From a virus (Duplodnaviria > Heunggongvirae > Uroviricota > Caudoviricetes), in IMG/VR virus record IMGVR_UViG_2703718828_000007: DNA of 42,721 nucleotides; one strand, given 5' to 3'. Made by a program: the position numbers and the translations under genes. The notes under the pieces were generated by a model that searched no databases, was not told where the DNA came from, and saw only the letters and a list, made by a program, of their open reading frames with translations. Below, piece by piece: positions 6,526-42,120 of this stretch; position 1 is the first letter of the stretch, and every line of letters starts with the position of its first letter.

Positions 6526-6536
6526 GACATCCTCCG

Positions 6537-7334: not shown

Positions 7335-7336
7335 AA

Positions 7337-7358: not shown

Positions 7359-7364
7359 ATTGCT

Positions 7365-8166: not shown

Positions 8167-8168
8167 TG

Positions 8169-8504: not shown

Positions 8505-8603
8505 TATAATGATAATTAACTGGTAAGTGAATTTTGCATATCGTTAAGATGTATCCCATTGGTACAGAAACATCTGAGGGGTAAGTAGCTTTTAACTACC
8601 GTG

Positions 8604-8999
8604 CTACTCACCATCCCCCTTAATCCGCCGTCCCATGTACTTGGCGTACAGTTCATCGAGTTCTTTCAACCGTAGAGATACGATCCGCAACATGTTCTGT
8701 TGTTCTTCTTCGTTTGGGAGTTGATTATAGAGTTCCAACAGTCTCCGTTCGTCGTGTCTCAAACCGTCCTTAGCATCCACGTCCTGACCTAGAACCCACT
8801 CAAGACTTACGCCTAGCGCATCGGCAAGTTTTATTGCTGAGCTTTTTCCTATCGCTCCTCTGACAAACCAGTTGTTGACTGATTGTGCGCTCACACCACA
8901 GATTCTCGCTATATCCGCTTTGGATATGCGCTTCTTCTCGATGATTTCATTTAACCGCCGAACCTGCGGGTTATCTGTTTGGTGTGTGTTTTTTCTCAT
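8604..8999 (-). CDS. Prophage repressor, XRE-family HTH (cI/RacR-like)
   Basis: 131 aa; HTH segment ISKADIARICGVSAQSVNNW; divergent from Cro-like gene; start at transcription start of PRM-like promoter. Confidence 0.7.
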   Translation of the reverse strand: MRKNTHQTDNPQVRRLNEIIEKKRISKADIARICGVSAQSVNNWFVRGAIGKSSAIKLADALGVSLEWVLGQDVDAKDGLRHDERRLLELYNQLPNEEEQQNMLRIVSLRLKELDELYAKYMGRRIKGDGE

Positions 9000-9007
9000 A
9001 TATCAAG

Positions 9008-9035
9008 ATTCTAAACTAAAAGTTTATCGCCTCAA
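9008..9035 (-). promoter_or_regulatory. PRM-like repressor maintenance promoter
   Basis: Minus strand TTGAGG, 16-nt spacer, TAGAAT; predicted start coincides with repressor ATG (leaderless, as lambda PRM). Confidence 0.4.
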
Positions 9036-9046
9036 CATTCATAATG

Positions 9047-9075
9047 TTGACTTGAACATAAACATAATGTTTAAT
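9047..9075 (+). promoter_or_regulatory. PR-like rightward early promoter with overlapping operator palindromes
   Basis: TTGACT, 17-nt spacer, TTTAAT; inverted repeats TCAACATT-CAT-AATGTTGA (9032-9050) and AAACAT-A-ATGTTT (9060-9072) overlap -35 and -10. Confidence 0.45.
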
Positions 9076-9102
9076 TTGGTTCGTTATTACTTGGAGCCAA
9101 AT

Positions 9103-9336
9103 ATGAAAGCACTTGATAAAGCAATATGCATCGTAGGGGGTGCAACCCGTTTAGCAGAAAAGCTCAATGTATCCCCAATGACGGTCAGTCACTGGCGTCA
9201 CCGTGACAATGGATTCGTACCGGCTAACCGTGTCATTCCTATTTTCAATGCTACAGGTGTAACTCCACATGAGTTACGCCCTGATTTGTACCTCAACCCT
9301 ACGGATGGATTACCGGCTCAGGAAGCGAGGGCATAA
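9103..9336 (+). CDS. Cro/YdaS-like small HTH regulator
   Basis: 77 aa from internal Met of track ORF 8872-9336; GGAG RBS 6 nt upstream; HTH-like ATRLAEKLNVSPMTVSHW. Confidence 0.6.
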   Translation: MKALDKAICIVGGATRLAEKLNVSPMTVSHWRHRDNGFVPANRVIPIFNATGVTPHELRPDLYLNPTDGLPAQEARA

Positions 9337-9338
9337 CC

Positions 9339-9878
9339 ATGCAGTCACTATCACTTCATCAAAATAGCGGATATCAAACGGCTGCGATGATAAATCGCAA
9401 TCAACCTGTCTCGGTAGATAAACATGACCAGATCCGCGATGCCGTTCGTGCGTGGGCGGGTGTAGATGGTCAGGATGTCGTTTCTGCTCTGATCATCGAA
9501 GAGTACCAGGCTCAAGGGGGAGACGAGATCACTTTCCCTGATGACCTCAGCCGACAGCGTCAGAAGCTTTTCCGCTTTCTGGATAACCATTTCAACAGCG
9601 AACGGTACCGCGAAAACGTTCGCCAGCTGACTCCGGCAATCCTCGCTGTCCTGCCGATTGAATACCGCAATCGTCTGCTACCAGAAGACAACGTAATGGC
9701 TCGTCTGGCAAGGCTGGAGAAGGAAACCAGCGAAGCGAAGATTGCTGTCGCAATGGATGCGCCACGTCATCAGAAGCTGAAAGAGTTGAGCGAGGGGATC
9801 GTGGAGATGTATCGCGTTGACCCTGGGTTAACCGGTCCGTTGATGGAAATGGTGCAGATTATGCTGGGGGCTATATGA
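9339..9878 (+). CDS. YdaT-like protein (Rac-type early module)
   Basis: 179 aa; segments EEYQAQGGDE and TPAILAVLPIEYRNRLL resemble Rac YdaT as recalled; position after cro-like gene. Confidence 0.45.
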   Translation: MQSLSLHQNSGYQTAAMINRNQPVSVDKHDQIRDAVRAWAGVDGQDVVSALIIEEYQAQGGDEITFPDDLSRQRQKLFRFLDNHFNSERYRENVRQLTPAILAVLPIEYRNRLLPEDNVMARLARLEKETSEAKIAVAMDAPRHQKLKELSEGIVEMYRVDPGLTGPLMEMVQIMLGAI

Positions 9879-9929
9879 CCGGTTCAAAAATGGCGAAAGC
9901 CGCGGTGCTCGAACACCAACGGCTTTCAG

Positions 9930-10871
9930 GTGCAAAAACAGTGCGTAATTGCGGAGAACAGTATGTCAAACACCGCTGAAATAATCAATTTCCCAAATAA
10001 AACCGAACAACCGGGAGGTCGTATGGCCGACCTGTCGAACGGGTATACCAAGGTCGCTAACGAGATCCAACAGCTTAAGCCTCGCCTGAGACTGTCAGGC
10101 CGGGAATGGCAATGTTTTGAGGCGGTGATCTGGCTTACCTACGGCTGGAACAAGAAACAGGACCGCGTGACAAATACGGTTATTGCCGAGCTTACGGGCC
10201 TGAGCGATACGCATGTATCGGACGCGCTTAAGTCTCTCGCAGAACGCAAAATCATCTTTTCACAGAAGCAGGGCATGATGAAAATCGTCGGTGTAAACAC
10301 TGACCTTTCAGCATGGATTTTAGACAAACCGGAAACGGGAAGAAAATTCCCGAAAACGGGAAAATCCTTCCCGAAATCAGGAATAACCTTCCCGAAAACG
10401 GTAGACACCCAATACAAGAACAAGAACAGTATTAAAAGATCTTCGTCCGAGAATTCTGACGAATCCTCTGACGCACGTCTGAAGAAATTTTTATCAACTC
10501 ATCCTGAAGCTGCGGTCTACACACCATCCGGTGCGAAGTGGGGCTCTGCTGAAGACCTCGAGACAGCTAAGTGGATTTCCTCCAGGGTGAAGCTGATTAA
10601 CCCAACCTGCAAAGCCCCGGACATGACCTCCTGGTCTAACACTGTTCGCCTGATGCGCCAGATAGACAACCGGTCGCACCAGGACATCTGCGCGCTGTAT
10701 GACTGGGCTAGCAAACACCACTTCTGGCAGACCAACATCCTGAGTCCCGAAAGCCTGCGTAAGCAGTGGGACAAGCTGACAATGCAGCGTAACGCCGGAG
10801 GTGAGCAGCGCGCTGTCAAGCCAGATCTGGACTTCAACAACACTGACTGGGCCTATGGGGTGATCCGATGA
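9930..10871 (+). CDS. Replication initiator, lambda O-like, with internal origin iterons
   Basis: 313 aa; four 21-bp-periodic repeats in mid-gene encoding FPKTG/FPKSG/FPKT; 4-nt overlap with P-like gene. Confidence 0.6.
   Translation: MQKQCVIAENSMSNTAEIINFPNKTEQPGGRMADLSNGYTKVANEIQQLKPRLRLSGREWQCFEAVIWLTYGWNKKQDRVTNTVIAELTGLSDTHVSDALKSLAERKIIFSQKQGMMKIVGVNTDLSAWILDKPETGRKFPKTGKSFPKSGITFPKTVDTQYKNKNSIKRSSSENSDESSDARLKKFLSTHPEAAVYTPSGAKWGSAEDLETAKWISSRVKLINPTCKAPDMTSWSNTVRLMRQIDNRSHQDICALYDWASKHHFWQTNILSPESLRKQWDKLTMQRNAGGEQRAVKPDLDFNNTDWAYGVIR
10326..10409 (+). repeat. Iteron array (candidate replication origin) inside O-like gene
   Basis: Four direct repeats of TTCCCGAAAACGGGAA-like units starting at about 10326, 10347, 10368, 10389, followed by an AT-rich tract. 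Confidence 0.5.
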
Positions 10872-11557
10872 AATCTCTTGCAGAGCAGATGCGTAACCAC
10901 GACCGCGAGCAGATGAGCCGCATGGCCCATAACCTGCCAGAGCAGTACCAGGAGTGCGCGCCGGTCGAGCAGGTGGCGCAGGTATTCAACAAGCTGTTCA
11001 ACGAGCTGCGCGCCGCGTTCCCGGCCAGCATGGCGAACTTCCGCACCCAGGAAGACCTGAACGAATTCCGCCGTCAGTGGCTGCTGGCGTTTCAGGAGAA
11101 CGGGATCCACACCATGGCTCAGGTCGATGCCGGCATGCGCATTGCCCGCCGCCAGGAGCGCCCATTCCTGCCGTCGCCGGGCCAGTTCGTCGCCTGGTGC
11201 AAGCAGAGCGGCGGCGCGCTGGGCGTCAACGTTGACCAGGTGATCGCCGAATACTGGGACTGGCGTAACCGCTCGTTCGAATTCATCTCCAGCGAGCAAT
11301 TTCCATGGTCGCAGCCGGTCATGTACCACATTTGCGTAGAATTGCGCCACCGCAGCACCGAGCGCCAGTTAACGCATGGTGAACTGGCACGCGAGGCAGG
11401 CGATCTGCTGGACATGTGGGAAAGGCGCGTCACCGAGGGTAAGCCAGTGCCGCCGGTACGCCGGGCTATTGCCGCACCAGCTGCCGAGCAAGGGCCGACG
11501 CCGATCCAGCTGCTGCTGGCCAAGTACAACCGCAACAAGTCGAACGGGATGGTGTGA
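10868..11557 (+). CDS. Replication protein P-like (helicase loader)
   Basis: 229 aa, translationally coupled to O-like gene; assignment mainly by position and size. Confidence 0.5.
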   Translation: MKSLAEQMRNHDREQMSRMAHNLPEQYQECAPVEQVAQVFNKLFNELRAAFPASMANFRTQEDLNEFRRQWLLAFQENGIHTMAQVDAGMRIARRQERPFLPSPGQFVAWCKQSGGALGVNVDQVIAEYWDWRNRSFEFISSEQFPWSQPVMYHICVELRHRSTERQLTHGELAREAGDLLDMWERRVTEGKPVPPVRRAIAAPAAEQGPTPIQLLLAKYNRNKSNGMV

Positions 11558-11558
11558 C

Positions 11559-11799
11559 ATGAACATAACAATCCGTGAGCAGGTGCTGGCAGCCCTGCGC
11601 AACAACCCAGGGTTGAACAACGCCAAACTGGCAGGGCTTCCCGGAGTGGTACATCATCGATCAGGACTATCGGGGGCAGAAGTACGCGAAGGACAAGCAG
11701 GTTGCGCGTTGTGGCAACGCAGTTCCGCCGCCATTCGCCGAGGCACTGGTGAGGGCTAATTTACCGGAGCTTTGTCAGCAGAAAGAGATCGCAGCTTAA
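11559..11799 (+). pseudogene. Frameshifted C-terminal remnant of a C5-cytosine DNA methyltransferase
   Basis: Frame +1 reads WQGFPEWYIIDQDYRGQKYAKDKQVARCGNAVPPPFAEALVRANL (QGFP and GNAV motifs of motifs IX-X); ATG at 11559 is in another frame; no N-terminal catalytic domain present. Confidence 0.45.
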
Positions 11800-11898
11800 T
11801 GTCCGAGTTTCAGAACATGGTGTAACAAATCCTGCTACTTCAATGACGTAGATTCAAACCTGATATAATTAGGCTCTTCACAACACGAGGAGCCTAAA

Positions 11899-12135
11899 AT
11901 GCACCATTACATGATCCCTATCAACGGAACTGTTCACCTGATCAAGACTGACTCTCTAATCCCTGAAGGGACTGAGTATAGCTTTGAAGGAGAAAGTCTA
12001 ATCTGCGCTCATGCCACTTTTAAATCTGGGACGTATGGCTTCCTGATACCAAAGGGAAATCAGTTGAATAGAGAGCATGCGTTCTGGCATGTAAGTGGAA
12101 TTCACCCTAATCCCCTGGGAATGGATAAATCGTAA
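11899..12135 (+). CDS. Hypothetical small protein (78 aa), moron-like
   Basis: GAGGAG RBS, AT-rich upstream with TATAAT-like -10; flanked by duplicated methyltransferase 3' tails. Confidence 0.4.
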   Translation: MHHYMIPINGTVHLIKTDSLIPEGTEYSFEGESLICAHATFKSGTYGFLIPKGNQLNREHAFWHVSGIHPNPLGMDKS

Positions 12136-12404
12136 TCCATAATATGCATGCCATCGTCCTGAACATACGGTGGCATGCATCCGGCACTACAACAGAAACG
12201 TTAAAGTGCAAACAATACAATTCGAGCAATATTCAACCTGTCACAGATGGCGAATACCACCGCCATTTCGTGCATTCTGTGGTTTCTATTACCCATTGCG
12301 TTAATGCTGTCCAATCATCAGCTCGCTGAGGCGCTGGTTAGGGCTAACCTACAGGAGCTTTGTCAGCAGAAACAAATAGCGGCGTAATAAAACATCGCTA
12401 ATTC

Positions 12405-12432
12405 AACCCGCTACGGCGGGTTTTCTTTTTTT
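12405..12432 (+). terminator. Rho-independent terminator
   Basis: CCCGC-TACG-GCGGG hairpin followed by T-run. Confidence 0.5.
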
Positions 12433-12494
12433 ACTACTGACAGAAAATTAACAATTTGTGCTCTTAAAGCGTTGATCATTTCCGCGCATAGGTA

Positions 12495-12514
12495 TACTGT
12501 ATAAAAACACAGTA
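12495..12514 (+). promoter_or_regulatory. LexA box (SOS operator) upstream of dinI-like gene
   Basis: TACTGTATAAAAACACAGTA matches CTGT-N8-ACAG consensus perfectly. Confidence 0.65.
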
Positions 12515-12532
12515 AATGCAATGGGGGCCATT

Positions 12533-12766
12533 ATGAAAGTTGAATTAACCATTGATCGCATGAAAGAACTTCCTAAAGGCGCAGTACCAGCACTGGAGAA
12601 AGAACTGCTTAAGCGCCTGAATGATCACTATGACAATTGCAGGCTCACAATCCGCCGTGCCGGGGCCGATGGGTTAAGTGTTTTTGGTGGTGACAAGGAC
12701 GATAAAAAGAAAATTGAATCAATCCTCCAGGATACCTGGGAAAGCGCTGACGACTGGTTTTATTAG
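12533..12766 (+). CDS. dinI: DinI-family DNA-damage-inducible protein
   Basis: MKVELTIDRMKELPKGAVPALEKEL ... ILQDTWESADDWFY closely resembles DinI (from memory); GGGGG RBS; LexA box upstream. Confidence 0.75.
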   Translation: MKVELTIDRMKELPKGAVPALEKELLKRLNDHYDNCRLTIRRAGADGLSVFGGDKDDKKKIESILQDTWESADDWFY

Positions 12767-12883
12767 AATTGCGCTTAAGGCTGGCGCGCATTTTTCAGAA
12801 TACCGCAATTTGCGTAACCCTCTGATGCTGCTGCCGACAATCTTTAATCGCGTCTGTTAGTCGCTCGAAGGGAGAACATAAAT

Positions 12884-13132
12884 GTGAGTGATTCAGCTTT
12901 GCAAACGTCAGAAGACAACTGGTATGACATTGTAAGAAGGTCTGACGGCTGCGTGGTGTTTAGCTTTCCTTCATCGGGCAGGCATCTAATTTATCGCGTC
13001 AATGGCATGGTTTCTATGCGGCCTTTGCTGGATGATGAAGAGGTCTTTACTCCTAATGGTTTTATGCAGTTTATTAACCGTCTCGGCTACCGGGTAACCC
13101 AACCTTCTGATAATATGAAATCAACGGTCTGA
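12884..13132 (+). CDS. Hypothetical protein (82 aa)
   Basis: ORF with GGGAG RBS; GTG start per track. Confidence 0.35.
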   Translation: MSDSALQTSEDNWYDIVRRSDGCVVFSFPSSGRHLIYRVNGMVSMRPLLDDEEVFTPNGFMQFINRLGYRVTQPSDNMKSTV

Positions 13133-13166
13133 ACAACCGTAACCTACTGCGCCACGGAGAGAAACC

Positions 13167-13766
13167 ATGGCGCACGAACTACAACTCATCAAGCAGTCAT
13201 CAGGAATCCTGATCCCCGCGACGCCGGAGACCAGCGATATTCTGCAATCAAAAATCAAACTCGGCGCCGTGCTGGTAGCCGAATTTCGCCAGGTGAGGAA
13301 TCCCGCATTCCATCGCCGTTTTTTTGCGCTCCTGAATCTCGGGTTTGAATACTGGGAACCTACTGGAGGGGCGATATCCAGCAATGAGCGTAAGCTCGTA
13401 AATGGTTATGCTAAATTCCTCGCGGCATTTGGTGGAAACGAAGGCGCACTGCTGGATGCTGCCGAGCAATATCTGGACCGCATCGCCGATAAGCGCGCCG
13501 GTAGCATCAGCATCTGCAAATCCTATGATGCTTATCGCGCCTGGGTGATCGTCGAGTCTGGTCACTATGACGCTATTCAGCTTCCTGACGGAACACTTCG
13601 CAAACATCCCCGCAGTATTGCCTTCGCTAACATGGACGAAACCGAGTTCCAGCAGCTGTACAAAGCCGCGCTCGATGTTCTGTGGCGATGGATACTCTCC
13701 CGATCATTTCGCAGTTGTGAAGAGGCAGAAAACGCCGCCGCCCAGCTGATGAGCTTTGCGGGGTGA
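13167..13766 (+). CDS. Nin-region phage protein (DUF1367/YbcN-like, tentative)
   Basis: 199 aa; sits upstream of YbcO-like and RusA as in DLP12 nin region. Confidence 0.4.
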   Translation: MAHELQLIKQSSGILIPATPETSDILQSKIKLGAVLVAEFRQVRNPAFHRRFFALLNLGFEYWEPTGGAISSNERKLVNGYAKFLAAFGGNEGALLDAAEQYLDRIADKRAGSISICKSYDAYRAWVIVESGHYDAIQLPDGTLRKHPRSIAFANMDETEFQQLYKAALDVLWRWILSRSFRSCEEAENAAAQLMSFAG

Positions 13767-13972
13767 TGGCGATGAAATTTTCCTGGTTCCACCATCACGA
13801 ATGCACCACCGAACAGGCCGACGAGCTGGTGGAGAAATACCGGGCGCGCGGTGTAAAGACAGAGCGCAGCCTGAATCGCGACAACATCACCTGGACCGTC
13901 AGCGCGCAATTGCCGGAAGGCGACAACGCGCCTCGCCCGAGCCGGGTATGGCAAAGCAAGGCGTGGGGGTGA
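13766..13972 (+). CDS. Hypothetical small protein (68 aa) of nin region
   Basis: ATG overlaps upstream stop (TGATG); between YbcN-like and YbcO-like genes. Confidence 0.35.
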   Translation: MAMKFSWFHHHECTTEQADELVEKYRARGVKTERSLNRDNITWTVSAQLPEGDNAPRPSRVWQSKAWG

Positions 13973-13974
13973 GC

Positions 13975-14265
13975 ATGGCAAATTTACGCAAAGAGGCTCG
14001 TGGTCGTGATTGTCAGGTTCGAATTCCCGGCGTCTGCAACGGTAACCCGGAAACGTCTGTACTGGCGCACATTCGCCTGGCCGGGTTATGTGGCACCGGA
14101 ATCAAACCGCCTGATCTGATTGCCACCATTGCATGCTCTGCCTGTCACGACGAGATCGACCGCCGTACACATTTTGTCGATGCTGAGTATGCTAAAGAAT
14201 GCGCGCTGGAAGGTATGGCGAGAACGCAGGTTATCTGGCTGAAAGAGGGGGTAATCAAGGCGTGA
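13975..14265 (+). CDS. YbcO-like protein (DUF1364, putative nuclease)
   Basis: 96 aa from internal Met [14 protein letters not shown]..; Cys/His-rich; immediately upstream of rusA. Confidence 0.5.
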
Positions 14266-14624
14266 ATACTTACAACATCACATTGCCCTGGCCGCCGAGC
14301 AATAACAGCTACTACCGCCATAATCGCGGGCGCACGCACATCAGCGCAGAAGGGCAGGCATACCGCGATAACGTCGCCCGAATCATTAAAAACGCAATGC
14401 TGGATATCGGTCTGACTATGCCTGTGAAAATCCGCATTGAGTGCCACATGCCGGATCGCCGTCGCCGTGACCTGGATAATCTGCAAAAGGCCGCTTTTGA
14501 CGCACTCACCAAAGCAGGTTTCTGGCTGGACGATGCTCAGGTCGTTGATTATCGCGTTGTGAAGATGCCCGTTACCAAAGGTGGAAAGCTGGAACTGACA
14601 ATCACCGGGCTGGAGGCCGTATGA
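14262..14624 (+). CDS. rusA: Holliday junction resolvase RusA
   Basis: GTG start; 120 aa [50 protein letters not shown]... nearly identical to E. coli RusA as recalled. Confidence 0.85.
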
Positions 14625-14754
14625 CATTTGAATCCTGTTTTTCCGATCACCTCCGCGTTCGCTGGCAGCGGCTTCGCTTATACCACTTTCCCGGCTCTGT
14701 GCTAACGGACTACCGGATACTGAAAAATTACATCAAAACCATAGGCGGTGCTGT

Positions 14755-15444
14755 ATGAACACTCAATTCCTCGAATACGTGCGCCAGCAGCTGATGGTGG
14801 CTACCGCCGATTTAAGTGGTGCGACGAAAGGGCAGTTGATGGCGTGGCTTGAGAACGCGCAGTTTGATACGGGAACGTTTAAACGTAAGAAGCCTCGAAT
14901 ATTGGATGAAGTGACCGGGAAAATGATTACGCTTGATAACCCACCGATTCCCGGCAAACAGTCGCATACCAAGGGTTCGCATATTCCCTTGGTGCAACCG
15001 GTTGAGTATTCAACGGCATCGTGGCGCCGCGCACTGATGACGCTCGAAGAACACCAGAAGGCCTGGTTGCTATGGAACTATAGCGAGAATGTGAGTTGGG
15101 ATAATCAGGTGCTGATTACTCAGTGGGCGTGGTCGAAATTTTGCGAGCATCTGGCCGGGAGGAAGGTGGCGAAGAAGACCGTCGAACGGTTGCGACAGCT
15201 TATCTGGCTGGCGGCACAGGATGTGAAGGCTGAATTGGCTGGGCGTGATGTCTATCAATATGGTGATCTGGCTGCGCTGGTGGGAGTTAACAAAACAAAC
15301 TGGTCTCAAAATTACGTGGAACATTACAATGTAATTATCAGCCTGTATAAGGGACTCGACTCCAAGGCGCTACTTCATGTTTCGCGATCACGTTCACAAC
15401 AAAAGGCAGCAAACTATCAGCAAGGTATTGCAAAAATGAACTAA
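14755..15444 (+). CDS. Late-gene antiterminator, Q-like (tentative)
   Basis: 229 aa; last gene before PR'-like promoter, tR'-like terminator and lysis region. Confidence 0.45.
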   Translation: MNTQFLEYVRQQLMVATADLSGATKGQLMAWLENAQFDTGTFKRKKPRILDEVTGKMITLDNPPIPGKQSHTKGSHIPLVQPVEYSTASWRRALMTLEEHQKAWLLWNYSENVSWDNQVLITQWAWSKFCEHLAGRKVAKKTVERLRQLIWLAAQDVKAELAGRDVYQYGDLAALVGVNKTNWSQNYVEHYNVIISLYKGLDSKALLHVSRSRSQQKAANYQQGIAKMN

Positions 15445-18356: not shown

Positions 18357-18659
18357 ATGAAAATGAATGATTCAGGGAACATTTTCACGCAGTTCTTCGC
18401 GTGGGTAGCAGCTCTGGCGTCAGCCATTGGTTTTACCACTCAGGATATGGTGTTCATGTTCTTTGGCGCCGCTGGTCTGCTTATCTCGTTTGCCTCCTAT
18501 GTCAATGGTCGCGTGGATGCCCACCGCAGGCGTAGAGAGGACGAGAAGCGAACAAAAATGGTTAATGACTACCTGAAAGGCGTTGGTGATAAACCCCTTC
18601 ACGAACGTCCTGCGGCTGCAAGCGTGGTCGTTGAGGCATTACAAAAGGAAGGTGAGTGA
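18357..18659 (+). CDS. Holin (putative, two-TM type)
   Basis: 100 aa; two hydrophobic helices then charged C-terminus (RRRREDEKRTK); overlaps endolysin start. Confidence 0.55.
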   Translation: MKMNDSGNIFTQFFAWVAALASAIGFTTQDMVFMFFGAAGLLISFASYVNGRVDAHRRRREDEKRTKMVNDYLKGVGDKPLHERPAAASVVVEALQKEGE

Positions 18660-19192
18660 TGGGATCCAGAGCAAAATTAAGTGCTGCTGTTCTGGGGTTG
18701 GTACTTGCTGGTGCGCCAGCATCCGTCATTCTCGATCAGTTTCTGAATGAGAAAGAGGGAAACAGCCTTACAGCGTACAAAGATGGCAGCGGTATCTGGA
18801 CGATTTGCCGGGGAGCTACCACGGTTGACGGCAAGCCTGTTACCCCAGGTATGAGGCTATCGCCAGAGAAATGTAATCAGGTGAACGCCAGCGAGCTGAA
18901 CAAGGCGCTGGCTTGGGTCGACCGCAATATCCAGGTACCACTGACCGAACCGCAGAAAGCGGGGATTGCCTCATTCTGCCCGTACAACATTGGTCCTGGT
19001 AAATGCTTCCCTTCTACCTTTTATAAACGCATCAACGCCGGTGATCGTAAAGGGGCATGTGAAGCAATCCGCTGGTGGATCAAAGACGGTGGCCGCGATT
19101 GCCGACTAACCAAAGGCCAGAAGAATGGCTGCTATGGTCAGGTTGAGAGACGGGACCAGGAAAGCGCGCTGGCGTGTTGGGGGTTAGATTAG
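18656..19192 (+). CDS. SAR endolysin (phage lysozyme)
   Basis: N-terminal signal-anchor-release helix ([16 protein letters not shown]), E...D...T catalytic spacing, C-terminal similarity to phage 21-type lysozyme (from memory). Confidence 0.8.
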
Positions 19193-19653
19193 TGAGCCGA
19201 TTAACAGCAATTATCTGTGCTGTCGTTATATGCCTGATGGTTTCCATGGCTTGGGCTATTAACCACTACCGCGGCAACGCCATCACCTACAAAGACCAGC
19301 GCGATAAAGCCATTAAGAATCTTAACCAGGCGAACGCCACCATCAAAGACATGCAGATCCGCCAGCGTGATGCAGCGGTGCTGGATGCCAAATACACGAA
19401 GGACTTAGCTGATGCTAAAAAGCAGCTTGATGATTTGCAGCGTTGTGTTCGCACTGGCAAGTGTGGGCTGCACGTCAACGCCAGATGTCCCGCGAACGGA
19501 GCGACCAGCACCGGCGGCCTGGGCGATGTTACCGGCCCCCGACTTACTGACTCCGCTGAACGGGATTATTTCACCCTCAGAGAGCGAATCGTCACAGTGA
19601 CGAAACAGGTTGGATATTTGCAGGAATACATCAAAGAGCAGTGCTTAAATTGA
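19192..19653 (+). CDS. Rz-like i-spanin
   Basis: GTG start overlapping endolysin stop; 153 aa, strongly lambda-Rz-like ([48 protein letters not shown]). Confidence 0.8.
19412..19600 (+). CDS. Rz1-like o-spanin embedded in Rz in +1 frame
   Basis: 62 aa with lipobox ASVGC and proline-rich body; ends NGIISPSE as lambda Rz1. Confidence 0.75.
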
Positions 19654-32239: not shown

Positions 32240-32388
32240 CAACCTGGCAGGAAATGGCCGCTGACGTCACCTTCTATTTCCGCTGGTCTGAGGACAGGGC
32301 GTGGGGAATGACCCGCGCCCGGCTGAAATGGTGGGTGGCGCAGGCATCCCGGATAAACAAGCTTAGGAAACCTGAAGACGATGAGTAA
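32218..32388 (+). other. Programmed -1 frameshift extension of tail chaperone
   Basis: Slippery heptamer T_TTT_TTG at 32218-32224; -1 frame stays open through FFDLEALTTWQEMAADVTFYFRW...PEDDE to stop at 32386-32388, overlapping tape-measure start. Confidence 0.5.
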
Positions 32389-34309
32389 TTCTTTTGATTT
32401 TGAGCTGGTGGCCAGCGACCAGGTTAGCGAGGCTATAGACCGCATTAATGAGGCTGTCCGTGACCTGGAGCCGAAGCTAGATAAAACTAAAGAAGGGCTC
32501 AAGTTAGGCGGTCAGGAAACAGCCGACGGACTGAGCGGTTTTATTTCTCGCCTCGAGAATATGTCGAAGAGCGCGCGGGATAACGTGCAGTTTATTGGCG
32601 ACATGGTTCCCCCACTGAAAATGGTGGGGGAGCTCACGGGGAAGATGGGGGCGCTGGGGTTAGCCGGTGCTGCCGGCTACGGACTGAAACAGGTCGCTTA
32701 TGGATTTCGGGAGGCATCCCGTCAGGCCTATAATCTTGATGTCTCGGCAAAAAATGCGGGAATGCGCGTTGACGATTTTACCCGACTTTCCGGGGCAATG
32801 CGTATTCTTGGGGCAGACAGCGAGAGCGCTAATGCATCAATAGAAGGTATTTTCAAAGCATTCAATGAGGCTGCCAGTGGTAAAAACGAGGGGGTTATGG
32901 CAGCGATGGCGCAAATTGGTGCTCAAATCCAAAAAAACAGCGATGGTTCAGTAAATACCCTTAAAACACTGGAGTCTATCGCAAAAATTTTTCCAACCTT
33001 GCGACCTGAACAGCAGAAGTCCGCCGCTGATGCACTTGGGCTGACGCCCGAATTGCTGGCGCTAATGCGTGACGGTGAGCGCATGAAAAAGCTGCTGGCG
33101 AAATCGGATGAATTTGGTCTGACTGTGGATCCGGCACTAAATCAGCAATTGAGTGAAGTGAACGGCACTATGAATGAGCTCAGCGCATCCTGGGATGGTC
33201 TGTGGCAACGTTCAAAAAACAAGGCACTTAAGACCATTCTTTCGGATGGTTCAGTCAAAGACGGCCTTGAAGGTGTTACCGATCTGTTCACTAATGGTGA
33301 TTTTACTGGGCTGTCTCATGCTCTCGGTTTTATCAACAGCAATGATGCTGAGAAACTACGGCGCATTCAGAACGATAAGGAACTTTATAACAGCTTACCC
33401 CGCAGTGAACGTGGGCAGGTTGACGCGGGTTTCATGACTGATGCTGTAAGAAAGCGGTACGATGCGAATTACCGCGCGACCGATTCTGCGATTCAATTGC
33501 AGAATGACTTATCCGCTATCAGCCAGCCACAATCCAACGTTGCACGCGGCAATGTTCCTTACGGGGAAACAAGGAATAACGCAATTGGCTTCAGAAATAA
33601 TAATCCCGGTAATTTGAGGGCTGCAGCAAACGCAACGGGTAAAAATGGCGGATTTTCTACCTTTGCGAATGATGCCGACGGAAGAGCTGCAATGGCGAGA
33701 CAGCTGATGTTGTATGGTGACAGGGGGAATAATACTCTGGATGGGATTATTCATACCTATGCTCCGCAATCAGAGAATAATACTCGTGCATATATTGATT
33801 CCGTATCAAAAAGTACTGGGTTTGGAGCGCAGCAGCGTATTAATCTCCACGATCCTGATGTGTTAAAAACACTGATGGCAGCAATGATTAAACATGAAAG
33901 CGGAGCACAGCCGTATACCGAAAATGAACTGAGCGATTCTGTCCGGACGGCCATCATTGACGATCGGTGGAAGGGTTTACGTAGCCCGGAAGTTCTGGCT
34001 CAACAGCGATATGATATTATCTCAGGTTCGCAAACTGGAAATCGTGACTCCAGCACTCTTAGTAACCCGAGTGATGAAACTGATATTCTCTCAGGCTCGC
34101 AGAACAGAAATCGGGAATCCATCATTCTGAGTGATACGGGTAAGAAAAGTGATGAAAGTGTACTCGGCGACAATCTGGCTAAGTCTCTTAAAGAGGCAAT
34201 GTCAGAACAACCACTTAAGCTCGAAATCACAATGGTTAATGATAAGGGTGAGCGAAAAACCTATAATGCGGAAAATAATGGCAGAATAACAACGGCCATG
34301 AATTACTGA
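32381..34309 (+). CDS. Tail tape measure protein
   Basis: 642 aa, follows chaperone/frameshift. Confidence 0.75.
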   Translation: MSNSFDFELVASDQVSEAIDRINEAVRDLEPKLDKTKEGLKLGGQETADGLSGFISRLENMSKSARDNVQFIGDMVPPLKMVGELTGKMGALGLAGAAGYGLKQVAYGFREASRQAYNLDVSAKNAGMRVDDFTRLSGAMRILGADSESANASIEGIFKAFNEAASGKNEGVMAAMAQIGAQIQKNSDGSVNTLKTLESIAKIFPTLRPEQQKSAADALGLTPELLALMRDGERMKKLLAKSDEFGLTVDPALNQQLSEVNGTMNELSASWDGLWQRSKNKALKTILSDGSVKDGLEGVTDLFTNGDFTGLSHALGFINSNDAEKLRRIQNDKELYNSLPRSERGQVDAGFMTDAVRKRYDANYRATDSAIQLQNDLSAISQPQSNVARGNVPYGETRNNAIGFRNNNPGNLRAAANATGKNGGFSTFANDADGRAAMARQLMLYGDRGNNTLDGIIHTYAPQSENNTRAYIDSVSKSTGFGAQQRINLHDPDVLKTLMAAMIKHESGAQPYTENELSDSVRTAIIDDRWKGLRSPEVLAQQRYDIISGSQTGNRDSSTLSNPSDETDILSGSQNRNRESIILSDTGKKSDESVLGDNLAKSLKEAMSEQPLKLEITMVNDKGERKTYNAENNGRITTAMNY

Positions 34310-34340
34310 TCACTGTCGTCATTTCGTTAAGGAAGAAGTT

Positions 34341-34589
34341 ATGAATGAAAAAGTTTTTGGAGCAAAAGCCATTTAGACTCCAAAGGTTTTTGCGCTTGTT
34401 TACCTGGTAATTGGCATTTTCCTCGTTTTTTCTGTTGTCTCAATGAATTTCACGGCGATTACGATATCGGTGGTAAGTGCATTGCTTTTACGTGTGCTTT
34501 ATGAGTTCCTAATGAACTCATTCAAGGCGACTGAGCATCTTTACAGGATCGCCGAATCTCTTGACCGTAATGGATCCAGCGATAAATAG
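34341..34589 (+). pseudogene. Small hydrophobic ORF with in-frame TAG (moron-like insert between tail genes)
   Basis: AAGGAAG RBS then ATG at 34341, in-frame TAG at 34374-34376, then hydrophobic TPKVFALVYLVIGIFLVFSVVS...; intact 48-aa version possible from ATG 34443. Confidence 0.3.
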
Positions 34590-34614
34590 ATAAGTCATTT
34601 CAGTGCATATGTAA

Positions 34615-34637
34615 ACCGCCGACATGGCGGTTTTTTT
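34615..34637 (+). terminator. Rho-independent terminator after small hydrophobic ORF
   Basis: ACCGCC-GACAT-GGCGGT hairpin followed by TTTTTTT. Confidence 0.5.
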
Positions 34638-34649
34638 ATTTCCGGAGGC

Positions 34650-36056
34650 GTGATGCCGTCAATTATCCAGGACGCAATAACTTCTCTTTTGGGGGGAGAT
34701 ACCAGCGATGACTGGCAGGGGCAGTTACGGCCCAGCTCATTCAGAGGTGTGCCATTTGCAATTGTTGCTGAGGAAGGGAGCCACGGCCGACGCCAGGCGG
34801 TACATGAATATCCCTACCGTGATACAGCCTGGATAGAGGATATCGGGCGGGCAACACGGCGATTTGTTATTCGCGGTTTCTTGATCCAGAACAGCCAGGT
34901 TTACGGCGGCGGCGATGCTATCACGCAGCGCCAGTCACTGATTGAAGCCTGTGAACAAAAAGGTAGCGGTACGCTTGTCCATCCGACACTGGGCGAATTA
35001 ACGGTTTCCATCCCTGAGAATGGTTTGCGTATTTCCGGTTCGATGGAGAACGGGCGAGTATTTGAATTTACCCTGATGGCAATTGAATCAGGGCTTAAAG
35101 TGTTTGCTGTCACGGGCAGTACCGTTGCAGGCGCCACGGTGAAAACCAACTATCTGAAACTGGTCAGCACTGCTGTGCTGAGCACGATTGCCAGAGTTAA
35201 GAGTGAAATCCGCGGTGTCACACAGGCTATAAACACCATCAGAGGCACGGTCACGTTCTGGACTAACATGGTTGACAGCACCATCAGTCAGGTCACGAAT
35301 CTCAGCAATGTCCTGAACTCCACGTTCGGGAATACCCGGTACGGACGTTACAGTAAAGGCTCTGTGGGCGGTAGTTCCTCTGCTGTTGCTGGCAAATCGT
35401 CAGTTGCTGATGTGGATGATGAGAGAGCACTGGCTGACAAGGTAACAGCCCAGTCGGTAATGGACCGGAAAAATGTTACCGACAGGTCGAGCCAGCTTAG
35501 CAGCTCCAACACACCTGATGAGTTTGTCCAGGGCGTCGCCGACGTGGTAAACGCAATTCTTAACAGCGCCGGCAGCGTTAATGACCGAATCACAGCGCTG
35601 GAAAAACTGGCTAATTCAATCAGCACGGAGTACCAGCAGTCCGACAGCAGCAAAGCGATTTCGGCGACCATGAACACGCTGATTGTTGTGCTATGTACTG
35701 GTGCCATGACCAGTGCCGCTGCGGACTCCAGACCAGCCAGTACAGACGAGGCAGAAGAGTTAACTCAACGAGTTTCTGTGCAACTTGATACGGCGCTGGT
35801 TCTGGCTGGAGACCGCGCGGACGATGATATGTATAACGCGCTTCTCGCCGTCAGATCGGCATTCCTTTCTACGATGAGTGAGCGTGCTTCTGGTCTGAGC
35901 GAGCTTCTGCAGGTTACTACCGCTCAGCCGCTTCCGGCGCTGACGCTGGCAAACCGATTATACCAGGATGCCACCCGTGCAGATGAACTGGTACAGGAAG
36001 CGCGCGTACCGCATCCGGCGTTTATGCCGACAACCATGAAGGTACTGAGGCAATGA
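34650..36056 (+). CDS. DNA circularization protein (Mu gpN-like)
   Basis: 468 aa; position after tape measure in Mu-like tail order; probable start ATG 34653 after GGAGG. Confidence 0.5.
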   Translation: MMPSIIQDAITSLLGGDTSDDWQGQLRPSSFRGVPFAIVAEEGSHGRRQAVHEYPYRDTAWIEDIGRATRRFVIRGFLIQNSQVYGGGDAITQRQSLIEACEQKGSGTLVHPTLGELTVSIPENGLRISGSMENGRVFEFTLMAIESGLKVFAVTGSTVAGATVKTNYLKLVSTAVLSTIARVKSEIRGVTQAINTIRGTVTFWTNMVDSTISQVTNLSNVLNSTFGNTRYGRYSKGSVGGSSSAVAGKSSVADVDDERALADKVTAQSVMDRKNVTDRSSQLSSSNTPDEFVQGVADVVNAILNSAGSVNDRITALEKLANSISTEYQQSDSSKAISATMNTLIVVLCTGAMTSAAADSRPASTDEAEELTQRVSVQLDTALVLAGDRADDDMYNALLAVRSAFLSTMSERASGLSELLQVTTAQPLPALTLANRLYQDATRADELVQEARVPHPAFMPTTMKVLRQ

Positions 36057-40617: not shown

Positions 40618-41061
40618 ATGAATAAAGTTAAAAGTGTTTACAGCCCGTCCGAAAATGCAATCTACAACGCAGCGCTATATGAAAGTTATATCAAGGAGGG
40701 GACATGGCCGCAGGATGGTATTGAAATCAGCGATGAGGATGCTGTCAGATTTAATGGGGGAAATAAGCCAACAGGAAAAATGCTGGGAATGGTTTCAGGG
40801 ACCCTTGCATGGGTTGATGAGCCGCCGCTTTCACCAGAACAGAAAATATCAGATGCAGAAAACATGAAAGCCACATTTCGTGCAAAAGCTGACAGCGAAA
40901 TATCCTGGCGTCAGGATGCTGTTGATGCTGGTATCGCAACTGATGAAGAAACTTCAACTCTCACCCAATGGAAGAAATACCGTGTGCTGCTGATGCGTGT
41001 TGATACGTCAACAGCACCCGATATTGAATGGCCTACGCCTCCGGCAGCTCAGGCCAGATGA
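40618..41061 (+). CDS. Tail fibre assembly protein (orientation A)
   Basis: 147 aa; C-terminal TAPDIEWPTPP motif typical of Tfa. Confidence 0.7.
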   Translation: MNKVKSVYSPSENAIYNAALYESYIKEGTWPQDGIEISDEDAVRFNGGNKPTGKMLGMVSGTLAWVDEPPLSPEQKISDAENMKATFRAKADSEISWRQDAVDAGIATDEETSTLTQWKKYRVLLMRVDTSTAPDIEWPTPPAAQAR

Positions 41062-41635
41062 CATCAGGCGCGGTGCTGGTATCTGTTGCCGTCACCGCGT
41101 CAATGTAATCCAGCACGGCGTTAAGTCGGGTTGTTTCTGCCGGCGTCAACTTCCGTCCGGCCTGTAATTTCAACTGAATCAGACTAATGGAAGCCATTGC
41201 AGTATCCATCAGCGACTGGCGCTGTGCTTCTGCTGCATCTACTGCGGCGCTATGCTGTGCCTCGGTATCCGTCACCCATTTCTCACCATCCCATTTATCG
41301 TATGGCGTTAACGGGGCTATAGTGGTTGTATTTTCGGGGTAATCACCCGGAGCTGTGATTTCTTTTGATTCTCCTGTTTTGGTGCTATAGACCGTTTCAC
41401 CGCGATGGTCTGGCACATATTCCCATGAGTTAAAATCTGCAGAACGGCAGATTGCATAACCAGCCTTATGTGTGCCAGGGGCATCTAAACAGGAACATGC
41501 CGGAATGCCGACACCAACGGCAAGATATTCATTTGAAGTGGAAATATATTCCCGAGTTTCACCATCATAGCTATAGACGGTAATATTCCCCGCCTTCGTG
41601 GCAATAAGCTCGCTATTTAATACAGCGTTATCCAT
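41033..41635 (-). CDS. Tail fibre assembly protein (orientation B)
   Basis: 200 aa; C-terminal TAPDVIWPELP; convergent with the other tfa. Confidence 0.7.
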   Translation of the reverse strand: MDNAVLNSELIATKAGNITVYSYDGETREYISTSNEYLAVGVGIPACSCLDAPGTHKAGYAICRSADFNSWEYVPDHRGETVYSTKTGESKEITAPGDYPENTTTIAPLTPYDKWDGEKWVTDTEAQHSAAVDAAEAQRQSLMDTAMASISLIQLKLQAGRKLTPAETTRLNAVLDYIDAVTATDTSTAPDVIWPELPEA

Positions 41636-42120
41636 TATGCAGCCCTCACGATAAAGTTAAATGCAATATTTCGCGCACGTGTTTCCGTTGATGTTCTGGC
41701 AACAAGTGATGCATCAAAATAATAATTCGCCTGTTTATATGTACCACCTATCGCAATTGATGCGAGATTTGGTGTCACTATTGAAGAGGTAAATGCGCCG
41801 ACAGTATTATTATTTGGCCCCGTGGTCATATCCCAAAAGCTACCTGTAATATTTTGCAGCGTATCGCTCTGAGCACTCAATAACGCTCGCCCACTGTCCA
41901 CTCCACGCCCATCATCCCAGCCACGAATAAACTCACCACGTAAATCAGGCAATTTATTTGTCGGGTAAGCCTTTGCCAGCTCCGGGTATTCTTCAGCAGA
42001 AAAAGCTGCACCATTGCATTTCAACCAGCCTGTCGGTGGTGTAGCTGAAGGCCACGGAACAGGCACACCAACCGGTAATGCAGAGCCTTCTCCCAAACCA
42101 ACCTTTTTTATAACCATCAA
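41635..42120 (-). CDS. Alternative tail fibre variable C-terminal segment (expressed after inversion)
   Basis: Minus ORF beginning inside right crossover site; encodes GLGE junction shared with the plus-strand fibre gene. Confidence 0.55.
   Translation of the reverse strand: MMVIKKVGLGEGSALPVGVPVPWPSATPPTGWLKCNGAAFSAEEYPELAKAYPTNKLPDLRGEFIRGWDDGRGVDSGRALLSAQSDTLQNITGSFWDMTTGPNNNTVGAFTSSIVTPNLASIAIGGTYKQANYYFDASLVARTSTETRARNIAFNFIVRAA
42088..42113. other. Right inversion crossover site (hix/gix-like, imperfect)
   Basis: TTCTCCCAAACC-AA-CCTTTTTTATAA. Confidence 0.55.

What the first reader, a model, noticed from the sequence alone, without database searches (positions are those of the whole stretch)
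34320..34640. AT-rich insert between tape measure and circularization genes with an interrupted small membrane ORF
Seen: about 340 bp of AT-rich DNA carrying a strong RBS, an ATG, an in-frame TAG at codon 12, then a continuous hydrophobic reading frame, followed by its own terminator. KVFGA before the stop is echoed by KVFAL after it. Inference: a moron encoding a small membrane protein that is now a nonsense pseudogene, or one translated from a downstream start.
Basis: partly seen in the sequence, partly recalled or inferred. Interest (0 to 1): 0.45.

Follow-up and report, generated by a model that had tools for sequence, protein, structure and literature searches.

The report
Amber-inactivated small membrane-protein moron after tape measure
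The AT-rich stretch between the tape-measure and baseplate-hub genes of this E. coli prophage carries a real, conserved accessory gene for an 82-residue two-helix membrane protein, knocked out here by a single TGG-to-TAG change; this is an ordinary nonsense pseudogene of an uncharacterised phage "moron".

Summary
RBS AAGGAAG (34329-34335) precedes ATG 34341. An in-frame TAG sits at 34374-34376 (codon 12), and the frame then stays open and hydrophobic to TAG 34587-34589. GC is 39-40% against 51% for the window. Intact 79-83-aa homologues exist, and the exact W12 counterpart occurs in Enterobacter. They have Trp (TGG) at codon 12, a conserved N-terminus upstream of the stop, and dN/dS of about 0.1-0.2. 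The window therefore carries a one-step nonsense allele. It is the commonest allele sampled: 21 of the 22 complete E. coli genomes that carry the gene. Two derived alleles restore an ORF: TAG to TAT (Tyr), and a T insertion that fuses a second ATG into the frame. The gene is accessory. It is absent from the cultured relatives phiNP and BZS1, and lies on the opposite strand in one relative. More distant DUF4282-like relatives again sit directly after tape-measure genes in other tail types. The terminator is not the gene's own, because relatives lacking the gene keep it. A functional product from the downstream ATG (M35) is unlikely. The function is inferred only: an inner-membrane superinfection-exclusion protein, analogous but not homologous to HK97 gp15.

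The parts
34341..34589 (+). Disrupted 82-codon gene for a two-TM, DUF4282-like small membrane protein (stop codon included)
   Evidence: Read-through translation is MNEKVFGAKAI*TPKVF...SSDK. It is identical, apart from codon 12, to the intact proteins P0040 (W12) and P0038 (Y12). Family alignment; dN/dS; AF2 helical hairpin.
34374..34376 (+). Amber codon (TAG) at codon 12, replacing the ancestral TGG (Trp)
   Evidence: Nearly all homologues have W12, encoded TGG in L012 and L033. TAG is present in 21 of 22 complete E. coli genomes that carry the gene and in most IMG/VR loci.
34329..34335 (+). Shine-Dalgarno-like AAGGAAG, 5 nt upstream of the ATG
   Evidence: Read directly from the sequence. 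Identical in L012 and L033.
34239..34267 (+). Candidate sigma-70 promoter (ATGATA-17-TATAAT) inside the AT-rich 3' end of the tape-measure gene; unproven
   Evidence: The background rate of such hits on the + strand is 0.04 per 200 nt. The motif is absent from the GC-richer equivalent region of the insert-less relative AW1.7 and is not detected in several distant relatives.
34345..34410 (+). Overlapping +1-frame 21-codon ORF starting at a second ATG; this start is used in the 'rescued' allele P0006/L034
   Evidence: P0006 = MKKFLEQKPFRLQRF + FALVYLV.... L034 carries TAG plus one extra T.
34387..34391 (+). T5 run; one extra T here in L034/P0006 joins the +1-frame start to the TM-encoding frame
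34443..34589 (+). Residual 48-codon ORF from M35 (TM2 plus the conserved C-terminal helix); no SD; probably not a functional product
   Evidence: Gene callers sometimes call it (P0011, 16 contigs). M35 is not conserved.
34613..34640 (+). Intrinsic terminator (stem-loop 34613-34633 plus T-run); a backbone element shared with relatives that lack the gene
   Evidence: Identical in AW1.7 and ECCWS199. Analogous hairpins with different stem sequences occur in L035, L037, L039, L040, phiNP, BZS1 and GF-2.
34030..34309 (+). AT-rich, mosaic 3' part of the tape-measure gene that travels with the small gene
   Evidence: Nucleotide homology to AW1.7 stops at 34029 and resumes at 34614. GC is 0.42. The C-terminal protein motif is still conserved.
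32381..34309 (+). Tape measure protein gene (context); homologues carry an SLT lytic-transglycosylase domain
   Evidence: Pfam PF01464 on homologous TMPs.
34653..36056 (+). gpN-like 'DNA circularization'/tail hub gene (context)
   Evidence: PF07157 in homologues.

Best explanation
The region holds an accessory gene (a moron in the loose sense). It sits between the stop codon of the SLT-domain tape-measure gene and the conserved TMP-gpN terminator of a lambdoid prophage with a Mu-type contractile tail.

**The intact gene.** It encodes an 82-residue inner-membrane helical hairpin:
- a short basic N-terminus with a conserved KVFGxKxIWTPK motif;
- two TM helices;
- a conserved helical C-terminal tail, LRVLYEFLMSSFKATEHLYRIAE.

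The likely topology is N-in/C-in. It is a distant DUF4282-like protein.

**The window allele.** A single G-to-A transition turned the conserved Trp-12 codon TGG into TAG. Translation from the strong RBS therefore ends after 11 residues and no functional protein is expected. The allele is tolerated because the gene is dispensable for virion production. It has spread with a successful phage lineage. In some descendants the frame was reopened, either by TAG to TAT (Tyr) or by a T insertion that uses a second ATG.

**Shown:** coding status, ancestral state, nonsense allele, accessory status, and recurrent adjacency to tape-measure genes.

**Inferred (about 0.3):** the intact protein acts from the prophage as a superinfection-exclusion factor. 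It would sit in the inner membrane and interfere with tape-measure-mediated channel formation and DNA entry by incoming related phages. This mechanism is analogous to HK97 gp15.
For: **Nonsense allele of a real gene.**
- Homologues of 79-83 aa have W at position 12 and 28 invariant columns, including F6, G7 and K9 upstream of the stop.
- P0040 equals the window protein with W12.
- L012 and L033 have TGG.
- Synonymous sites are saturated against dN of about 0.35, giving omega of about 0.1-0.2. L040 versus L042 shows 6 synonymous and 0 nonsynonymous changes.

**Frequency and derived alleles.**
- 21 TAG to 1 TAT among the 22 of 5426 complete E. coli genomes that carry the gene.
- TAG also occurs in Citrobacter youngae (L008) and in most IMG/VR loci.
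- TAT loci nest within TAG clades.
- Only W or Y is seen at position 12 among the close alleles listed.
- The Y12 protein is recorded on 134 contigs.
- P0006/L034 is TAG plus an extra T, using the second ATG.

**Relaxed constraint in the TAG/TAT clade.** There are 4 variable sites, all non-synonymous or affecting a stop. gpN in the same loci has 7 nonsynonymous and 17 synonymous changes.

**Accessory status.**
- Absent from AW1.7-type E. coli prophages.
- Absent from the cultured phages phiNP and BZS1, which have the same tail module.
- GC is 39-40% against 51-54%.
- The homologue in L045 occupies the same TMP/gpN slot on the opposite strand.
- L039 has an extra gene in the slot.

**Link to the tape measure.**
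- All close homologues sit directly after the SLT-type TMP.
- GF-2 ORF-19 abuts its TMP stop codon.
- P0020 directly follows a TMP_3-type TMP in a siphovirus-like module.
- P0021 lies in a baseplate module.

**Analogy.** HK97 gp15 is a small inner-membrane moron product next to the TMP gene. It blocks genome entry in a tail-dependent way and has non-phage chromosomal homologues, YebO (PMC3594210). Here too, distant relatives occur in non-phage contexts.
Against: - No expression or phenotype data exist, so the exclusion function is pure analogy.
- There is no sequence homology to HK97 gp15 (hhalign probability 0.9%).
- There is no hit in PADLOC defence models.
- The fold search returned nothing with E <= 0.001.
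- An independent promoter is not established. The window has one 10/12 match, but strict scans find none in L033, L035, L037, L039 or L040.
- In GF-2 the gene abuts the TMP stop, which suggests late, co-operonic expression rather than prophage expression.
- The amber allele being the commonest sampled argues that the intact protein gives little benefit in E. coli. Alternatively, residual expression may be enough.
- The evidence for relaxed constraint rests on only 4 events.
Confidence: 0.85

Rival explanations
1. The TAG allele is leaky rather than dead. Low-level UAG read-through would insert Gln, Tyr or Trp. Alternatively, initiation at the second ATG (34345) followed by a -1 slip on the GGTTTTTG run would enter the TM frame. 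Either route could yield small but sufficient amounts of the membrane protein, so the amber codon would act as an expression-lowering variant.
For: - The amber allele persists and predominates across hosts and recombinant backbones.
- The stop is followed by A, a comparatively weak termination context in E. coli (established knowledge, not tested here).
- The second ATG shares the same SD, and a T5 run lies exactly where one extra T restores the frame in P0006.
Against: - No suppressor tRNA is present in the window.
- There is no canonical X XXY YYZ slippery heptamer and no known read-through context.
- The second ATG is not conserved in relatives (L035 has ATGAACGAA).
- Changes within the TAG clade are all non-synonymous.
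- Genetic reopening of the frame (TAT, T insertion) would be less expected if read-through already sufficed.
Confidence: 0.08
2. The functional product in this window is the 48-residue protein made from the downstream ATG at 34443 (M35). It would be a single-TM protein carrying the conserved C-terminal helix.
For: - An ATG is in frame and the most conserved motif, LRVLYEFLM..FKATEHLYRIAE, is retained.
- Some gene callers predict it (P0011).
Against: - No SD lies upstream (ttgtctcaATG).
- The ATG is 66 nt from the amber stop, too far for efficient re-initiation (established knowledge).
- M35 is not conserved in the family.
- TM1 and the invariant N-terminal residues F6, G7, K9, T13, P14, K15 and F17 would be lost.
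- The position-27 changes and the stop-loss in the clade suggest drift.
Confidence: 0.05
3. The intact gene is not a prophage-expressed defence moron. Instead it is a late-expressed helper of the phage's own cycle, made together with the tape-measure protein. It might handle the TMP's hydrophobic or SLT segments at the membrane, or modulate lysis or membrane integrity. It would be helpful but non-essential.
For: - It has the same strand and tight linkage to the TMP 3' end in most lineages.
- In GF-2 the start abuts the TMP stop with no room for a promoter.
- It lies upstream of the operon-internal terminator, so it would be co-transcribed with the TMP.
- A promoter is not consistently detectable.
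Against: - In L045 the gene is on the opposite strand, which requires its own transcription.
- It is absent from the functional phages phiNP and BZS1.
- An amber allele is carried by most sampled prophages.
- Its composition is atypical.
- Relatives occur in non-phage chromosomal contexts.
- A lysis cassette already exists elsewhere, at 18357-19653.
Confidence: 0.2
4. The stop codon is a sequencing or assembly artefact, or the region is non-coding (for example a regulatory RNA) and the ORF is a chance product of T-rich sequence.
For: - 8.8% of shuffles of the 303-bp region give an open run of at least 70 codons.
- RefSeq annotates nothing here in 21 genomes.
Against: - The TAG is identical in 21 independent complete genomes and more than 20 IMG/VR contigs.
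- Homologues at 52-60% identity in the same slot show purifying selection.
- No Rfam family reaches threshold.
Confidence: 0.01

Closest known systems
HK97 gp15 moron (superinfection exclusion; YebO-related), Cumby et al. 2012 as summarised in PMC3594210
   Same: - A small inner-membrane protein gene inserted in the tail operon next to the tape-measure gene.
- AT-rich and followed by a terminator.
- Dispensable for the phage.
- Homologues also occur outside prophages.
   Different: - No sequence relationship (hhalign probability 0.9%).
- gp15 is 62 aa with one TM and lies upstream of the TMP gene. Here the protein is 82 aa with two TMs and lies downstream.
- The terminator here belongs to the backbone.
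- Exclusion activity is untested, and the window copy is an amber pseudogene.
Pfam DUF4282 (PF14110), uncharacterised small integral membrane proteins
   Same: - All 10 family members tested hit this model, with a best E-value of 6.6e-6.
- Relatives P0012, P0021, P0025 and P0033 carry precomputed PF14110 hits.
- UniRef labels the Y12 allele 'DUF4282 domain-containing protein'.
   Different: - The window protein scores 22.4 bits, below the 27-bit gathering cut-off.
- The family has no known function.
- No paper in the searchable library mentions it.
PHROG phrog_12129 (unknown function)
   Same: Best phage-family match: E 6.2e-11 covering residues 6-77 of 82.
   Different: It is unannotated, so it adds no functional information.
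Superinfection-exclusion and defence proteins that target the tape-measure protein: TP-J34 Ltp (Bebeacua et al. 2013, cited in PMC3952083) and JBD26 Tab (PMC10884400)
   Same: - Small prophage-encoded proteins whose specificity maps to the incoming phage's TMP.
- Tab is an 83-residue moron in a late operon.
   Different: - Ltp is a surface lipoprotein of Gram-positive hosts.
- Tab blocks tail assembly rather than DNA entry, and the Tab paper's text contains no mention of 'transmembrane'.
- No homology to either was tested or is claimed.
- They are analogies for mechanism only.
Edwardsiella phage GF-2 ORF-19 (YP_009126622.1)
   Same: The only homologue in a cultured, deposited phage. It is 80 aa, 33% identical, lies directly after the SLT-type 'lytic tail protein'/TMP, and is followed by a terminator.
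   Different: - A different baseplate module.
- The gene abuts the TMP stop.
- It is intact.
- Its function is likewise unknown.

Membership tests
Nonsense pseudogene of a conserved protein-coding gene | In-frame stop at a codon that is a conserved sense codon in orthologues | tested here: met
   TAG at codon 12 against TGG/W in L012, L033, P0001-P0005, P0008, P0009, P0013, P0014 and P0040.
Nonsense pseudogene of a conserved protein-coding gene | Orthologues evolve under purifying selection, so the gene is real | tested here: met
   dN is about 0.35 with saturated dS. L040 versus L042 shows 6 synonymous and 0 nonsynonymous changes.
Nonsense pseudogene of a conserved protein-coding gene | No conserved alternative start or recoding signal that would bypass the stop | tested here: met
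   M35 and the second ATG are not conserved, M35 has no SD, and the window has no tRNA. Read-through itself was not measured.
Nonsense pseudogene of a conserved protein-coding gene | Relaxed constraint after the stop arose | tested here: inconclusive
   The ORF has 4 non-synonymous or stop changes and 0 synonymous, against 7 nonsynonymous and 17 synonymous in gpN in the same loci. There are too few events, and recombination is evident.
Moron (Juhala et al. 2000 definition as given in PMC3594210) | Present between two genes that are adjacent in related phages | tested here: met
   AW1.7, ECCWS199, phiNP and BZS1 have 29-36 nt plus the terminator between TMP and gpN.
Moron (Juhala et al. 2000 definition as given in PMC3594210) | Base composition different from neighbouring genes | tested here: met
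   GC is 0.39-0.40 against 0.51-0.54. The AT-rich tract also covers the last ~280 nt of the TMP gene.
Moron (Juhala et al. 2000 definition as given in PMC3594210) | Own promoter | tested here: inconclusive
   There is one 10/12 sigma-70 match at 34239-34267. None is detected in several relatives. The opposite-strand copy in L045 must have its own promoter.
Moron (Juhala et al. 2000 definition as given in PMC3594210) | Own terminator | tested here: not met
   A terminator follows the gene, but the same element is present in relatives without the gene. The gene borrows a backbone terminator.
Moron (Juhala et al. 2000 definition as given in PMC3594210) | Expressed from the repressed prophage | not testable with these tools
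   Needs RNA-seq or 5'-RACE on lysogens.
Pfam DUF4282 (PF14110) | Score at or above the Pfam gathering threshold (27 bits) | tested here: inconclusive
   The window protein scores 22.4 bits (E 1.9e-4). All 10 members hit, with a best E of 6.6e-6. Several relatives have recorded PF14110 hits.
HK97 gp15 / YebO family | Sequence homology to gp15 | tested here: not met
   hhalign probability is 0.9%, with 8 aligned columns.
Superinfection-exclusion proteins acting at DNA entry | Blocks genome entry of superinfecting phage without blocking adsorption | not testable with these tools
   Only circumstantial evidence: inner-membrane hairpin, TMP adjacency in three tail types, and accessory status.
Class II holin | Two TM helices and a location in the lysis cassette next to the endolysin | tested here: not met
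   Two TMs are present, but the gene is in the tail module. The lysis genes (lysozyme, lysis protein) lie at 18357-19653.

The most novel reading that the evidence does not exclude
The DUF4282-like two-TM proteins found directly after tape-measure genes may form a new, uncharacterised family of inner-membrane superinfection-exclusion proteins. They occur in at least three unrelated tail types: Mu-type myovirus, GF-2-type myovirus, and a TMP_3 siphovirus-like module. They would block tape-measure-mediated genome injection. On this reading, the amber allele and its restorations (TAG to TAT, always to an aromatic residue, and the T-insertion/second-ATG rescue) record repeated switching off and on of this function under alternating selection.
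Probability: 0.22. Interest if true: 0.55.

Novelty: new member of a known kind. Interest (0 to 1): 0.3.

Why it matters
In itself this is a routine nonsense pseudogene of a phage accessory gene. It has two modest points of value.

1. **Annotation.** RefSeq leaves this locus empty in 21 of the 22 complete E. coli genomes that carry the gene. The locus should be annotated as a pseudogene of a DUF4282-like small membrane protein.
2. **A testable lead.** An uncharacterised small membrane-protein family recurs next to tape-measure genes in different tail architectures. It also shows natural off alleles and restored alleles. This makes it a cheap, well-defined candidate for a new superinfection-exclusion factor, because the W12, Y12, amber and rescue alleles form a ready-made allelic series.

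Tried and rejected
- **DNA search of cultured phages** with the region found nothing. A tblastn search found only Edwardsiella phage GF-2.
- **Rfam** at a permissive E-value gave only a sub-threshold hit on the terminator. The regulatory-RNA reading was rejected.
- **ARAGORN** found no tRNA in the window. A phage-borne amber suppressor was rejected.
- **PADLOC and NCBIfam** gave no meaningful hits.
- **Foldseek against BFVD** found nothing with E <= 0.001. A helical hairpin is too generic a fold.
- **Literature search** for DUF4282 returned zero papers.
- **HK97 gp15 homology** was rejected.
- **Tandem Repeats Finder** did not call the imperfect duplication in the TMP 3' end.
It was redone with P0001 as the first row.
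- **ECONIH4 as the source of the window** was rejected. I assumed identity at first, but only 15428-40236 is collinear, at 99.76%. The annotation is therefore used for the late region only.
- **Two independent TAG-to-TAT reversions** are suggested by the flank tree. I do not claim this, because the ORF sequences point to recombination instead.

Full report
**1. What is in the sequence**

The window's late region (15428-40236) is 99.76% identical to a prophage of E. coli ECONIH4. RefSeq annotation of that prophage shows a lambda-like head module followed by a Mu-type contractile tail. The tail genes run sheath, tube, assembly chaperone, a 642-aa tape-measure protein (TMP, 32381-34309), 'DNA circularization protein' gpN (34653-36056), then baseplate genes. 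Nothing is annotated between TMP and gpN.

Reading the sequence gives the following features:
- AAGGAAG at 34329-34335;
- ATG at 34341;
- TAG at 34374-34376, which is codon 12;
- an open frame from there to TAG 34587-34589;
- a 9-bp GC-rich hairpin at 34613-34633 followed by a T-run, then the gpN RBS.

The read-through translation is MNEKVFGAKAI*TPKVFALVYLVIGIFLVFSVVSMNFTAITISVVSALLLRVLYEFLMNSFKATEHLYRIAESLDRNGSSDK.

GC is 0.39-0.40 here, against 0.51 for the window and 0.54 for gpN. The AT-rich tract already begins in the last ~280 nt of the TMP gene.

**2. It is a real gene, and TAG replaces a conserved Trp codon**

A search of 5.8 billion proteins returned 79-83-aa homologues from Escherichia, Enterobacter and Citrobacter, plus metagenomes.
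- In the alignment, 28 columns are invariant. These include residues upstream of the stop (F6, G7, K9), T13-P14-K15, F17, and the C-terminal block L48...E72. Position 12 is W in all but one sequence.
- P0040, from Enterobacter roggenkampii and seen on 31 contigs, is identical to the window's conceptual protein except for W12.
- At the DNA level L012 and L033 have TGG, so the window differs by one G-to-A transition.
- Among intact members, synonymous sites are saturated while dN is about 0.35. The close pair L040/L042 shows 6 synonymous and 0 non-synonymous differences.

ORF length alone would not have been convincing, because 8.8% of shuffles give a comparable open run. The comparative evidence is what establishes coding.

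AlphaFold2 with the family alignment gives a confident helical hairpin, H3-34 and H37-76, with mean pLDDT 81. This agrees with the two hydrophobic segments.

**3. Allele distribution**

- Of 5426 complete E. coli genomes, 22 carry the gene. Twenty-one are 100% identical over the 85-86 nt around codon 12, meaning TAG, and have no annotation there. NCTC9040 has TAT (Tyr) and an annotated 82-aa CDS.
- In IMG/VR and GTDB loci, most copies carry TAG, including Citrobacter youngae L008. Three carry TAT, two carry TGG, and one distant copy has CTA.
- The TAG allele sits on different backbones. The window and ECONIH4 have unrelated early regions. L002-type prophages have a shorter TMP.
- TAT loci nest within TAG clades in a flank tree, but ORF haplotypes indicate recombination. 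I do not claim more than one reversion.
- The Y12 protein is recorded on 134 contigs.
- Among the close alleles listed, only W or Y occurs at position 12.
- A second restoration is P0006/L034, found in the Enterobacter cloacae complex on 8 contigs. It has TAG plus one extra T in the T5 run at 34387-34391. The overlapping ATG at 34345 then reads into the TM frame and gives an 81-aa protein with a new N-terminus.
- Within the TAG/TAT clade the ORF shows four variable sites: codon 12, F27Y, F27C and stop83Q. None is synonymous. gpN in the same loci has 7 non-synonymous and 17 synonymous changes. This is suggestive of relaxed constraint, but the numbers are small.

**4. The gene is accessory and tied to the tape-measure gene**

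- E. coli prophages of the AW1.7 type share the flanks at 89-92% identity. They lose nucleotide homology between 34029 and 34614, and have only 29 nt between the TMP stop and the same terminator.
- The closest cultured phages with this tail module are Citrobacter phage phiNP (gpN 68% identical) and Serratia phage BZS1 (50%). They have 33-36 nt between TMP and gpN and no small gene. The gene is therefore dispensable for virions.
- Diverged homologues at 52-60% protein identity occupy the same slot in modules whose flanks are 70-79% identical at the nucleotide level. These are L035, L036-38, L039 and L040-42. The gene is thus an old resident of this tail module rather than a recent arrival.
- In L045 the homologue (profile E 1.6e-12) lies in the same TMP/gpN slot on the opposite strand, which requires independent transcription.
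- L039 has an additional 188-aa gene in the slot.
- More distant DUF4282-like relatives again lie directly after a TMP. Examples are Edwardsiella phage GF-2 and a siphovirus-like module with a TMP_3-type TMP. One lies within an E217/Pam3-like baseplate cluster. Others are in ordinary chromosomal contexts.
- The whole family is small, with 24 clusters at 50% identity among 1.84 billion representatives.

**5. The terminator and promoter**

The hairpin plus T-run after the gene is a backbone feature, not the gene's own.
- It is identical in the insert-less E. coli relatives.
- Hairpins with different stem sequences occupy the same position in every relative examined, including phiNP, BZS1 and GF-2.

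The gene therefore sits between the TMP stop and a pre-existing operon-internal terminator.

The evidence for a promoter is mixed.
- A sigma-70-like site (ATGATA-17-TATAAT, 10 of 12) lies at 34239-34267 in the AT-rich TMP 3' end.
- Such matches occur at only 0.04 per 200 nt on this strand.
- The GC-richer AW1.7 equivalent lacks it.
- Strict scans find no equivalent in several relatives.

An independent promoter is plausible but unproven.

**6. Can the stop be bypassed?**

- The window has no tRNA gene and no Rfam element.
- The only canonical in-frame start after the stop is M35 (34443). It lacks an SD, lies 66 nt downstream, and is not conserved. It would give a 48-aa protein without TM1 or the conserved N-terminus.
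- Low-level UAG read-through, or slippage from the second ATG, cannot be excluded computationally. No recoding signal is evident.

**7. Mechanism**

Shown: this is an amber-inactivated copy of a conserved, dispensable gene for a two-TM membrane protein that recurs beside tape-measure genes.

Inferred, at about 0.3: the intact protein is an inner-membrane superinfection-exclusion factor directed at TMP-mediated genome entry. The reasoning is by analogy with HK97 gp15. That protein is a small inner-membrane moron product next to the TMP gene. Its exclusion depends on the incoming tail, and it has chromosomal YebO homologues (PMC3594210). A further general precedent is that exclusion or defence proteins can target TMPs: Ltp (Bebeacua 2013, cited in PMC3952083) and Tab (PMC10884400).

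It is not a member of the gp15 family. Pfam places it at the edge of DUF4282, at 22.4 bits against a 27-bit cut-off, with all ten members hitting. PHROGs places it in phrog_12129, whose function is unknown.

The main functional rival is a late-expressed, non-essential helper made together with the TMP. The GF-2 arrangement and the lack of consistent promoters favour that rival. The opposite-strand copy, the presence/absence pattern and the successful amber allele disfavour it.

**8. Verdict**

The pseudogene and moron reading is supported. The 'downstream start' and 'own terminator' readings are not supported. Novelty is low: this is a new, inactivated member of a known kind of element. There is a modestly interesting lead in the recurrent pairing of TMP genes with DUF4282-like membrane proteins, together with its natural allelic series.

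Noticed in passing
window 34613-34640; also L004 about 2501-2530, L046 2968-2990, L047 2968-2990, L035/L037/L039/L040 downstream of the small gene: A rho-independent terminator sits inside the late tail operon between the tape-measure gene and gpN in every relative examined, with or without the small gene. Stem sequences differ between lineages but the hairpin is kept. It may set the expression ratio of the sheath/tube/TMP genes to the baseplate genes, or stop non-antiterminated transcription.
   Followed up: partly
window about 34011-34150 (within the TMP gene): There is an imperfect ~69-nt (23-codon) duplication in the TMP C-terminal region (SGSQTGNRDSS... / SGSQNRNRES...). L002/L003-type prophages have one copy (TMP 1860 nt against 1929 nt). 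Off-register blastn hits at 78% identity support it, but TRF did not call it. It could alter tail length or the TMP C-terminal function.
   Followed up: partly
window 40911-42101 against L007 40222-41406: The tail-fibre and fibre-assembly segment aligns to the ECONIH4 prophage in inverted orientation, at 88.6% and 93.7% identity. It lies next to a 'recombinase family protein' gene in ECONIH4. This is consistent with a Mu G-segment-like invertible host-range switch captured in opposite orientations.
   Followed up: no
window 1-15427: The early and regulatory left part of the window has no megablast match to the ECONIH4 prophage, while the late region 15428-40236 is 99.76% identical. This is a clear mosaic junction near the Q/late-operon boundary.
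   Followed up: no
L039 3375-3941: One relative carries an extra 188-aa ORF with no Pfam hit between the TMP and the small membrane-protein gene. The TMP/gpN slot therefore seems to be a hot spot for cargo.
   Followed up: no
L043 5417-7325 (Edwardsiella phage GF-2): In GF-2 an Arc-like repressor/Ant (immI-like) module is inserted right after the small membrane-protein gene, between the TMP and baseplate genes.
   Followed up: no
NZ_LR134247.1 (NCTC9040), second place; protein P0007: NCTC9040 has two matches to the region. The protein collection also holds a Y12 variant with an internal frameshifted stretch from a contig of the same length (P0007). The TMP there is split into two CDS. These may be a second prophage copy or assembly indels.
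   Followed up: no
L007 10982-12918 (ECONIH4; not collinear with the window): RefSeq marks a frameshifted DNA cytosine methyltransferase pseudogene and a truncated gp53-like tail-fibre fragment in the ECONIH4 prophage. Their state in the window itself was not checked.
   Followed up: no
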